This document shows positions 30,451-39,030 of a DNA stretch of 64,000 bases, in pieces. The notes beneath the pieces are model-generated. The model worked only from the letters and a program-made list of their open reading frames with translations, searched no databases and had not been told where the DNA came from. Numbering within the stretch: the first letter of the stretch is position 1; every line of letters begins with the position of its first letter. A program made the position numbers and the translations under genes. The DNA comes from Macrostomum lignano (taxonomy: Eukaryota), in NCBI GenBank assembly GCA_002269645.1, contig NIVC01000247.1, positions 248,001 to 312,000 on the forward strand, given 5' to 3'.

Positions 30451-33400
30451 ATGAAATTGCGTTCTGGTACCCAACTCGGACAACAACAACAACAAGAGCC
30501 GCCTGCAATATCCACACCAAATTCTGCCGGTGTCGCTGAAAATACTATTGATATTTCTGGTGATTCTACTGGCATTTGTGGACATTCTACTGGTATTGGT
30601 GGACATTCTACTGGTATTGGTGGACATTCTACTGGCATTGGAGGACACCATACTGACGACACCCAACAGCAACTAACACAAACAGCTACCCCAGCTACAT
30701 TTTGCCATCTACCTGGCCTCCATCAAGAAAACACTGCCATCGGCACCAGAGACGAAGAACAACCTTCTGAGTTGTACGAGCAGCAACAAGAACAACATCC
30801 TCCACAGCCACTTCTGCAACCTGATCATTTGAATCAAAATAACGCCAATATCCAGGAAACTGAGAGCAACGTTACAATGGCAGAAGCACTAATGCAACAA
30901 TTTATCAATGCTGTGCGAGATCAACAAAGACCACACGCTGCAATCCCAGCTAGTACCATCAACGAGATCCGCGAAGGTCTCAAGGAGATAGATCAACTTC
31001 ATGATTTTGCCTCTTTCATCATGGAGTATGATCTATCAGCGAGAACTTTTAATCTAGATGAAAACTCAAAGCTTCGCATCTTTCCTCGGCTCCTCAACGA
31101 TCTCCTAAAGATCGAATATGCCGCTCTACCCGCCGAGACACAAAATGACTACACCCAATTAGTTCGGTCTCTGTCCGACAGAATAGCGGTACTCACTCTC
31201 GGATCCACTTCGGCACTACATCACATCGCCAACCGCCGACAACTCCCGGGTGAGCCATTCATCCAGTACTACACGGACATTCGCCGCAAACTTCGTGCCA
31301 TATACCCAGAAGTCTCGCCACTACCACCCGTGGATGGCGAAAATGCACCGGCTAACCAAGCGGTCATTGACCAACGAAATGAAATGTTTAACAAAACATT
31401 GATCGGCCATATACTAAGTGGCGCTCTACCTCACCTTCGCGTTGAACTACTGCGAAACCCGCTGAATACCGAACAACAGCTGCTCAACCAGGCCATTCGC
31501 CTTGAACAAATACAGCAGTCTTCACAATTAACGGCCCCAAACAACGTTCCGGCCGATATAGAAAAACGCCTTGCTGCCTTAGAATGTGGAACCATCAAGC
31601 CCAAGCCAATAGTAGCGGCTATTCAAGGCGCTAGCAATACTAGAGAACCACCAACGTGCAAATTCTGCCACAGGATTGGACACACAACAGATCGATGCTA
31701 CCAGGATCCTCGAAATGCACGCCAACAAACTGCCAATGCTAGACAACCAAGACAGGCTGACTCTAAGTGGACACGCAATCAACCGATTCAAGACCGGTAC
31801 AGACGAGGCTCCGATGATCCTCGCAGCCGAGACACAGGCTCTCCAGCCAAATACTGCCACTTTCACAACTCGGACACCCATGATACCGAAGAATGTCGTA
31901 CCCTACACGATATTAAACAGGGGAGAACAACAAACAATAACCCACAGCGGTATAATCTAGGCCGGCGCGTACAATTTCAGCGCAACCCCACTCAACGATA
32001 TCAACGGGAACGCCACTCTGATTCACCAAACCACGGACGTTCCAGAACACCGTCACCGCGCCCTCCTGCAGCCGGTGTAAACTCAATTCAGGTTGTCTCG
32101 AACGACCCCATGCCACAACTGCCGACTATGGACTCGCCTCAACAAATTGTGCCACCGAACAGCACACCCAGTGCTCCACAGCGTCTCACTGAGGTTCCTG
32201 TGGCAAAATCAACGGCTACTCCAACCTATGCTTTGGACAGACCAATTGAGTACAAGTTCCATGGCTCGACCAGGCAGTTTAAGAAATTAATCCGCGACAG
32301 TCCATCTACACTGTCAGTCATCCACGTTCAACCGTACACTACGCTATCAGCCGCTCAACCAAAGCTAAGAAAAGATATGCTACGTGCCCAGCGACAGCAG
32401 GTACACGTAAAAAGACCACTGTCTCAGCAGAAAGGACGTCGACTAACTGGTCTAACGACGCTTCTCGTGACACTCATCTGGCTATCGCTATTCCCGACGG
32501 TGCAGACAACACCACTGCCATCGAATCCTAAGCAACATCCACTCTACGTGGACACACCAATGCTCTGTCCATTAGATGGACCCGTGCGCATCTTCAAGAT
32601 TCCTCAGCAGATCAGATGCGAACAGTTCACGTCGTCACAGGACGTTACGACACCAGTGCACTTACAGCTCTACTCTACTAACCTGGAGCAAACCAGAACA
32701 CCAGTCAGCTTATGCTTCCGTGAGGAAATCTCGGTTAATTGCCTCCCAATGAGCCAGGTTCTGCGCTCTCTCCGTGATGCGTACGTAACCTTACGCCCAC
32801 TTACAGTCGCCGCACAAGATTGCCAACATTGGACCGAATCATATAACTCACCTGATGGTCAGCTTCAACTGGTTGCCACCACTGGAAACTACAAAATCTC
32901 TCGCTCCAATACAGGAACCTCCTTCCTCGAAGACTGTTACCATCGCAAGGCACGAACTCAAATAGTTTCAACACTCATACAAGGGATAATAGCTTTCGCC
33001 TCTCCTAGCAAACCAATGGAATCGTTAGCCTTCTCCATGGCACACTGTAGCTATTCATCTCAAGGCTGCATTATTGAGACAACCTTTGACAACATGAAAC
33101 GCTATAACCTACCGACAACTCTCCTTCAAAACGCATGGGACACTCTCGACCCACCGGCGACACAACAACTGACCGTTACTGGCCAACGAAAACTGACACT
33201 TACGTGGAAAACAACAAGCCGTTCGGACTGTATACTCACGCCATTCCGACAAATTCGAGGTAACATACACTCGGGATTCTTCATTAACGAAGAACAGACA
33301 TTGGCTTTGACCTTTAAATTGCCGCTTCAACCCTTCCGCCTTACCTGCTCAATTGGAACGAAACGACTATATGTTTCCGAACAAGAACTGTACGTTGAAG

Positions 33401-39030: not shown

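What the first reader, a model, noticed from the sequence alone, without database searches (positions are those of the whole stretch)
30451..39030. Gypsy retroelement with an envelope glycoprotein embedded in frame between Gag and Pol in one polyprotein
Seen: one uninterrupted 2859-aa ORF. Gag (two zinc knuckles) is followed by RR-LTGLTTLLVTLIWLSLFPTVQT (aa 663-686, signal-peptide-like), an ~800-aa region with 14 Cys and 7 N-glycosylation sequons (NTT, NIT, NKS, NFS, NRS, NYS, NAT), a TM (FLFSSAVIVYAALLIFLCNI, aa 1489-1508), a tail, then PR-RT-RH-IN with intact catalytic residues. Known: env-bearing LTR elements and retroviruses normally place env as a separate ORF downstream of pol. Inference: exactly two membrane crossings would put Gag in the cytosol, Env in the ER lumen and Pol back in the cytosol, a flavi/alphavirus-like polyprotein strategy in a retroelement. 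With near-identical LTRs, this looks like a potentially infectious, recently active invertebrate retrovirus of unusual architecture.
Basis: partly seen in the sequence, partly recalled or inferred. Interest (0 to 1): 0.96.

Follow-up and report, generated by a model that had tools for sequence, protein, structure and literature searches.

The report
Flatworm retrotransposon with fused gag-env-pol polyprotein
This is an intact, recently inserted flatworm jumping gene that carries a virus-type membrane-fusion protein in the middle of its single large protein; the layout is real and unusual, but it has already been described in worms and other invertebrates, and how it works has not been tested.

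Summary
Observation confirmed. One 2859-aa ORF (30451-39030) lies between 576-bp LTRs that differ at one site. It reads Gag - internal signal peptide - 800-aa ectodomain - TM - PR-RT-RH-IN. A 100%-identical envelope region is annotated in Macrostomum lignano. The insert is a class III (herpes gB / Nyamiviridae G-like) fusogen: profile hit to EBV gB E 1e-16, fold hits to gB and Nyavirus G. It is not an assembly artefact (gap-free contigs bridge gag-env-pol in other runs). It is not a one-off capture either: the two nearest Pol relatives carry the same env-TM-PR fusion, and distant relatives have complete single-ORF gag-env-pol. The architecture is known. GAG-ENV-POL gB-type elements are reported in nematodes, bryozoans and flatworms, including a different M. 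lignano family (PMC13524379), and as nematode NERVs (Sacco 2022; recalled, not readable here). New here: an unlisted family with a ~200-aa mucin-like insert, TG..GA ends and a fusion loop without aromatic residues. The two-pass topology model is well supported by conservation but untested. It implies that Pol is packaged on Env's tail instead of on Gag. Infectivity is not shown.

The parts
27922..27925 (+). left target-site duplication (TATG) in a 36-bp satellite
27926..28501 (+). 5' LTR, 576 bp, ends TG...GA; TATA-like at LTR position 161, AATAAA at 28364
28503..28514 (+). primer-binding site starting TGG one base after the LTR; resembles the complement of a tRNA-Asp 3' end (label recalled, from no call)
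28502..30450 (+). long 5' leader (~1.95 kb); no + strand ORF above 77 aa; no Rfam match
30451..39030 (+). single gag-env-pro-pol ORF, 2859 aa
30451..32436 (+). Gag (aa 1-662): Ty3/Arc-like capsid region, CCHC knuckle 403-416, CHHC-type knuckle 469-482
   Evidence: Atlas hits 0.93-0.94 to Ty3_capsid / Retrotrans_gag clusters; no direct Pfam Gag hit
32437..32508 (+). internal signal peptide / signal-anchor (aa 663-686), net +5 charge on its N side, predicted cleavage after V-Q-T686
   Evidence: cleavage inferred
32509..34914 (+). Env ectodomain (aa 687-1488), class III fusogen fold, 14 Cys, 7 sequons
33436..34044 (+). Ser/Thr/Pro-rich mucin-like insert (about aa 996-1198), low pLDDT, much longer than in relatives
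34045..34056 (+). furin-like site RIRR (aa 1199-1202), in the linker where most relatives have one; a second R-x-x-R at 1029
34915..34983 (+). transmembrane anchor / stop-transfer (aa 1489-1511)
34984..35325 (+). cytosolic Env tail and linker to protease (about aa 1512-1625)
   Evidence: inferred topology
35347..35595 (+). aspartic protease (DSG, D1639)
36376..37485 (+). reverse transcriptase and RNase H
37768..38820 (+). integrase (HHCC, DDE, GPY/F-like GPMRI at aa 2758)
39031..40754 (+). 3' untranslated region (~1.7 kb), no third ORF on the + strand; purine-rich tract 40742-40754 before the 3' LTR
40755..41330 (+). 3' LTR, 576 bp, one difference from the 5' LTR
41331..41334 (+). right target-site duplication (TATG), satellite continues to 42748

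Best explanation
An intact, recently inserted Ty3/gypsy LTR element of Macrostomum lignano, of the GAG-ENV-POL, gB-type (class III fusogen) kind. Shown: the anatomy, the fold class of the insert, its long residence in the lineage, and the fusion in one frame. Inferred mechanism: (1) unspliced LTR-driven RNA is translated as one polyprotein. (2) Gag stays in the cytosol; the internal hydrophobic segment (663-686, basic on its N side) inserts N-cytosol/C-lumen and signal peptidase cuts near T686. (3) The ectodomain is glycosylated and folded in the ER as a class III trimer, and may be cut by furin at RIRR1202 next to a heavily O-glycosylated linker. (4) The TM at 1489-1511 stops transfer and returns the tail and PR-RT-RH-IN to the cytosol. 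(5) After signal-peptidase cleavage, Gag is held at the membrane by its C-terminal anchor and Pol hangs on Env's tail, in a 1:1:1 ratio. Pol would then enter particles only by budding through an Env-bearing membrane, and clustering of Env would bring protease monomers together for maturation. (6) The enveloped particles move between cells, probably soma to germline. Odds: identity and anatomy about 0.95; two-pass topology with signal-peptidase cleavage about 0.75; Pol delivered on Env's tail as the main route about 0.5; particles that fuse with other cells about 0.45.
For: Class III fold. The profile of alignment A1 (the window's ectodomain plus 29 relatives) hits EBV gB at E 1e-16. The AlphaFold model (mean pLDDT 63, pTM 0.42, low mainly in the mucin stretch) hits HSV/HCMV gB at E 1e-12 and Nyavirus midwayense G at E 1.6e-21 as the top viral hit. 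13 of the 14 ectodomain Cys are shared by most aligned relatives, 8 of them by all that cover the column. Lineage feature: of 73 Pol-search hits, the two nearest non-self proteins covering the whole query (54-55% identity; the next is 32%) both carry env-TM-PR-RT-RH-IN in one protein and group with the query at 100% SH-aLRT. Env C-half identity to P0057 (36%) equals protease identity (36%). Of 51 relatives examined, 14 have more than 150 aa upstream of env in the same protein; all 14 have a hydrophobic 17-mer (mean KD at least 1.55) with net positive charge before it, and 11 of 14 have an upstream zinc knuckle. 18 have a protease motif after env, 17 of these with a TM of KD at least 1.5; 7 have both sides. 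P0050 and P0055 are complete Gag-Env-PR-RT-RH-IN single proteins. Gap-free contigs from other runs bridge both junctions (X3 31266-39102; X1 31258-36632; X16 31642-36632), and no joint skips env. LTRs 575/576 identical, 4-bp TSD.
Against: No transcript, protein or particle data: none of the listed runs is on record as RNA, so splicing is untested. Fusion loop 1 (aa 759-775) has no aromatic residue, whereas 14 of 15 relatives have at least one there, so fusion activity is less certain than the fold suggests. TM-scores to gB are low (about 0.3), so the match is at domain level. One close relative appears as two proteins split inside env (P0008 and P0056, same source name and contig length). A Macrostomum gene model of a sister family (P0009) keeps the signal and TM but lacks most of the ectodomain. 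A 1:1:1 Gag:Env:Pol ratio is unusual for capsid assembly (own knowledge), which suggests some unseen control such as splicing. The hydrophobicity count in relatives took the best window near env and has no null control.
Confidence: 0.72

Rival explanations
1. The genomic ORF is continuous, but the products are set by splicing or another recoding step: a gag-pol mRNA that skips env gives a conventional Gag-Pol, and Env (or Gag-Env) is made from a second transcript. The element is still envelope-bearing, but the Pol-on-Env-tail step is wrong.
For: Capsids normally need excess Gag (own knowledge). Cer1, another single-ORF Ty3/gypsy element, makes a separate protein by splicing (PMC10309623, passages). 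Gene model P0009 skips most of the ectodomain, although it is an obviously chimeric prediction.
Against: No env-skipping joint in 4 of 4 runs laid, but these are contigs and are not on record as RNA. The frame is kept across both junctions in lineages that are far apart, which splicing would not require.
Confidence: 0.17
2. Env is kept as a membrane scaffold or for direct cell-to-cell transfer and not as the fusogen of free virions: it anchors Gag and Pol at a membrane, and this copy may have weak or no fusion activity.
For: Fusion loop 1 without aromatic residues and a very long mucin-like insert (291-aa linker against 64-150 aa in 21 relatives). The eLife study states that the transmission mechanism is unknown outside Drosophila (PMC13524379 Discussion).
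Against: Loop 2 keeps aromatic residues, the class III cysteine framework is conserved, and a furin-like site is kept.
Confidence: 0.09
3. The insert is a one-off captured host or viral fragment, or an assembly chimera.
For: The first search among longer proteins found only the self match.
Against: 49 further relatives; the same fusion in the nearest Pol relatives; bridging contigs in runs of other studies; base composition of env like that of gag and pol.
Confidence: 0.02

Closest known systems
HSV/gB-type 'errantiviruses' with GAG-ENV-POL order (PMC13524379; Nematoda, Bryozoa, Platyhelminthes), including Platyhelminthes_Rhabditophora_Mlig_errantivirus_2
   Same: Ty3/gypsy Pol, gB-like env placed between gag and pol, LTRs, flatworm host; M. 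lignano had 93 POL and 51 ENV hits in their ENV-POL search.
   Different: Their listed M. lignano element has LTRs of about 864 nt, spans about 10.6 kb and has another PBS; this one has 576-bp LTRs and spans 13.4 kb, and its PBS complement is not in their table. The main text has no hit for 'polyprotein', 'in-frame', 'single ORF' or 'fused'; figures could not be seen.
Nematode endogenous retroviruses, NERV (Sacco et al. 2022, J Gen Virol 103:1739)
   Same: Env before pol (as cited in PMC13524379). From recall only: a continuous gag-env-pro-pol ORF, metavirus RT and a Nyamiviridae-like glycoprotein. The top viral fold hit here is Nyavirus midwayense G.
   Different: The host is a flatworm; RT relationship to NERVs not tested; paper not held.
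Drosophila gypsy / insect errantiviruses
   Same: Env-bearing Ty3/gypsy LTR elements.
   Different: They carry F-type (class I) env as a separate ORF after pol (PMC13524379); here class III env in frame before pol, and no third ORF.
Anakin (BEL/Pao with chuvirus glycoprotein)
   Same: Retroelement with a class III glycoprotein related to negative-strand RNA virus G (PMC12440569 Introduction; PMC13524379).
   Different: BEL/Pao, not Ty3/gypsy; gene order not compared here.
Flavivirus / alphavirus structural polyproteins (own knowledge)
   Same: Internal signal and stop-transfer segments, with host signal peptidase separating capsid, envelope and cytosolic enzymes.
   Different: An analogy of strategy only; those use class II fusogens, and no homology was tested.

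Membership tests
Ty3/gypsy (Metaviridae) | LTRs with TSD, PBS and purine tract | tested here: met
   576-bp LTRs, TATG TSD, TGG-start PBS, purine-rich tract; ends TG..GA instead of TG..CA
Ty3/gypsy (Metaviridae) | Pol order PR-RT-RH-IN with intact catalytic residues | tested here: met
Ty3/gypsy (Metaviridae) | Ty3-type capsid Gag | tested here: met
   Atlas 0.93-0.94 to Ty3_capsid / Retrotrans_gag clusters; relatives carry PF19259 / PF03732; no direct Pfam hit for this Gag
Ty3/gypsy (Metaviridae) | RT phylogeny within a named Gypsy clade | tested here: inconclusive
   quick tree of 66 RT-RH rows without named reference clades; the careful search did not finish
HSV/gB-type GAG-ENV-POL errantivirus (PMC13524379, operational term) | gB-like class III ectodomain flanked by a signal peptide and a TM | tested here: met
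HSV/gB-type GAG-ENV-POL errantivirus (PMC13524379, operational term) | env between gag and pol in an intact LTR element | tested here: met
HSV/gB-type GAG-ENV-POL errantivirus (PMC13524379, operational term) | hydrophobic fusion loops in domain I | tested here: inconclusive
   loop 2 keeps aromatic residues; loop 1 has none, against 14 of 15 relatives; loops assigned from the model and alignment
NERV (Sacco 2022; features recalled) | continuous gag-env-pro-pol ORF | tested here: met
NERV (Sacco 2022; features recalled) | restricted to nematodes | tested here: not met
   identical envelope region annotated in Macrostomum lignano
NERV (Sacco 2022; features recalled) | RT monophyly with NERVs | not testable with these tools
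   no named NERV sequences on hand; paper not held
Retroviridae | class I env in a separate ORF after pol | tested here: not met
   class III env before pol; no ORF after pol
Troyka | CG..CG termini and 3-bp TSD (PMC12440569) | tested here: not met
   TG..GA termini, 4-bp TSD
Infectious endogenous retrovirus (functional sense) | enveloped particles that transmit between cells | not testable with these tools
   no expression or particle data

The most novel reading that the evidence does not exclude
These elements package their enzymes in a way not described for retroviruses or LTR retrotransposons: host signal peptidase splits one polyprotein into membrane-anchored Gag and an Env-Pol fusion, so protease, RT and integrase enter the particle on the tail of the fusogen. 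Every transposition-competent particle would then be enveloped, making this an obligately extracellular (infectious) life cycle. This family adds an Ebola-GP-like mucin shield on a class III spike (comparison recalled).
Probability: 0.4. Interest if true: 0.78.

Novelty: new member of a known kind. Interest (0 to 1): 0.5.

Why it matters
The gene order is in print, but the searches run here found no text that tests how such a polyprotein is processed, and the 2026 survey says that transmission outside Drosophila is unresolved. The one primary paper on the nematode elements could not be read and may discuss it. This copy is complete and recent, and it sits in a species with working transgenesis (PMC12801592, abstract). 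That makes the topology, the route by which Pol is packaged and soma-to-germline transfer open to direct observation. If Pol travels on Env, envelope use is built into replication, which would explain why env has been kept in frame across distant lineages.

Tried and rejected
Direct Pfam scan of the ORF gave no env family, and the ectodomain alone gave only Glycoprotein_B at E 0.067. The word-seeded search among longer proteins found only the self match. Atlas env scores of 0.86-0.89 with low recognition are a lead only. Expression: no RNA holder listed, so says nothing on splicing. The RT tree's careful search did not finish. In the quick tree the 6 env-bearing rows of 66 need 3 changes, but starred branches force only 1, so one origin is not excluded and no clade name can be given. 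No canonical heat-shock element matched the two patterns tried in the LTR. No slippery heptamer near either env junction (two elsewhere, aa 363 and 2795). No Rfam family in the element and no tRNA gene in the window. Sacco 2022 is not held by DOI or PMID; one paper search returned unrelated medical papers. PMC12801592 (M. lignano LTR survey) has no mention of envelope or glycoprotein in its main text; its supplements were not opened. Cer1's supposed env is a different protein, CERV. Earlier scan notes: none found. Rejected: Troyka, Retroviridae, assembly chimera, one-off host capture. No complex prediction was run.

Full report
Observation. The ORF is there as described: 30451-39030 (+), 2859 aa, no stop. 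Chance does not give it: the longest open run in 200 shuffles was 230 codons. Only two segments of the protein exceed a hydropathy mean of 1.6, at 666-684 and 1490-1508. Between them lie 14 Cys and 7 sequons. Pfam places PR, RT, RH and IN after the second segment, and their catalytic residues are present. The N-terminal part resembles Ty3/Arc capsid clusters at 0.93-0.94, though Pfam gives no direct Gag hit. One knuckle is CCHC and the other CHHC-type. The LTRs are 27926-28501 and 40755-41330, 575 of 576 identical, ending TG...GA, with a TATG duplication inside a 36-bp satellite, a TGG-start primer site and a purine-rich tract. The tRNA-Asp label for the primer site is recalled.

Host and reality of the fusion. 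A 2852-aa protein with a 100%-identical envelope region is annotated in Macrostomum lignano. The 7-aa difference fits a 21-nt repeat unit missing at 30578 in 3 of 4 runs laid. Gap-free contigs bridge gag, env and pol in 3 of 4 runs (X3 31266-39102, X1 31258-36632, X16 31642-36632). The 3 joints listed all lie in the LTR, and none skips env. These runs are contigs and none is on record as RNA, so this shows that the DNA is real, not how it is spliced. Of the substitution rows shown (40; 44 more not shown), 13 fall in the ORF: 7 synonymous, 6 non-synonymous, no stop, none in env. Some lower-identity contigs carry a one-base gap in gag, and one X1 contig leaves the element at 34800, so damaged or diverged copies exist too.

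What the insert is. An unfiltered search found 50 proteins including the self match. In an alignment of the ectodomain with 29 of them, 18 of 30 members match Monjiviricetes_fusion and 5 match Glycoprotein_B at E up to 0.1. The profile hits EBV gB at E 1e-16. The model (pLDDT 63, pTM 0.42; low in the mucin-like stretch) matches herpes gB (E 1e-12, TM about 0.3) and Nyavirus midwayense G (E 1.6e-21). So it is a class III fusogen fold. Peculiar to this family: the linker between C966 and C1257 is 291 aa and 34% Ser+Thr, against 64-150 aa and 10-23% in 21 relatives, 14 of which have a furin-like site there as this one does. Fusion loop 1 has no aromatic residue, against 14 of 15 relatives; loop 2 keeps them.

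Is it a one-off? No. Among 73 Pol-search hits the two nearest full-coverage relatives (P0056, P0057; 54-55%) both carry env-TM-PR-RT-RH-IN in one protein, and no close env-less relative appeared. Env is as conserved as the protease against P0057 (36% each). Among 51 relatives, 14 have long upstream sequence in the same protein; all 14 show a hydrophobic segment with a basic N side just before env, and 11 have a zinc knuckle upstream. 18 have a protease motif downstream, 17 with a clear TM, and 7 have both sides. One of those 7 (P0004) is a chimeric-looking gene model. P0050 and P0055 are complete single-protein Gag-Env-Pol on other RT branches. Against: P0008 and P0056 look like one element split inside env, and gene model P0009 lacks most of the ectodomain. 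The tree is the quick one, has no named clades, and does not exclude a single origin.

Mechanism. Shown: anatomy, fold class, conservation of internal signal, TM and frame. Inferred: co-translational insertion of 663-686 with its basic side (+5) in the cytosol, signal-peptidase cleavage near T686, luminal folding and possible furin cleavage at RIRR1202, stop-transfer at 1489-1511, and Pol in the cytosol 129 aa after the TM (76-225 aa in 17 of 18 relatives). The consequence is that Gag and Pol are separated before assembly. Gag stays membrane-anchored by its C-terminus and Pol rides on Env's tail, so enzymes are packaged through the envelope at a 1:1:1 ratio. I put this whole reading at 0.72 for topology and identity, and about 0.45 for infectious particles. 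The main rival is env-skipping splicing (0.17), then a non-fusogenic scaffold role (0.09).

Comparison with what is known. PMC13524379 (read: parts 2-4 of the text, first part of the Discussion, keyword passages, rows of supplementary files 2, 3, 6 and 7; figures not visible; preprint passages) reports that Nematoda, Bryozoa and Platyhelminthes elements carry HSV/gB-type env in GAG-ENV-POL order. It lists 9 flatworm elements, one from M. lignano, with different LTR length, span and primer site. Its text does not mention a polyprotein, but its figures may show ORF layout. It cites Sacco 2022, which I could not read; I recall that it describes a continuous gag-env-pro-pol ORF with a Nyamiviridae-like env in nematodes. 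PMC12801592 (abstract, first part, keyword passages) surveys M. lignano LTR families without mentioning envelopes. PMC12440569 (first part), PMC10309623 (passages) and PMC5408684 (passages) served to rule out Troyka, Cer1/CERV and rotifer ORF3 types.

Verdict. A real and well-preserved element, correctly read by the first stage, but a new member of a described kind. What is still open is the mechanism, which appears untested in the papers searched and can be examined in this model animal. Interest 0.5.

Noticed in passing
window 12909-17314: A second, env-less Ty3/gypsy element with 100% identical 218-bp LTRs (gag 13125-13604, pol 14050-16932) inserted in a 15-bp satellite; both recent elements in this window sit inside satellites.
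   Followed up: partly
window 27926-28501 and 40755-41330: LTR ends are TG...GA instead of TG...CA, and the integrase D-to-E spacing is 34 residues, one short of the usual 35 (recalled); close relatives P0056 and P0057 show the same short loop.
   Followed up: partly
window 1-8100 and 53700-63900: A segmental duplication at about 90-96% identity, each copy with a Mab-21_C (cGAS/Mab-21-like) ORF, 5463-6812 and 60874-62043 on the minus strand; an ankyrin ORF follows at 8887-9714.
   Followed up: no
P0008 and P0056: The closest Pol relative is labelled as a Kangiellaceae bacterial MAG protein; it is most likely animal retroelement DNA binned into a bacterial genome (inference).
   Followed up: no
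P0045, P0020: Relatives with other layouts: P0045 has several protease-like domains before and after env; P0020 has a NADAR domain upstream of the env signal.
   Followed up: no
window 28502-30450 and 39031-40754: Unusually long untranslated regions (about 1.95 and 1.7 kb) with no Rfam match; possible sites of translation or packaging control.
   Followed up: partly
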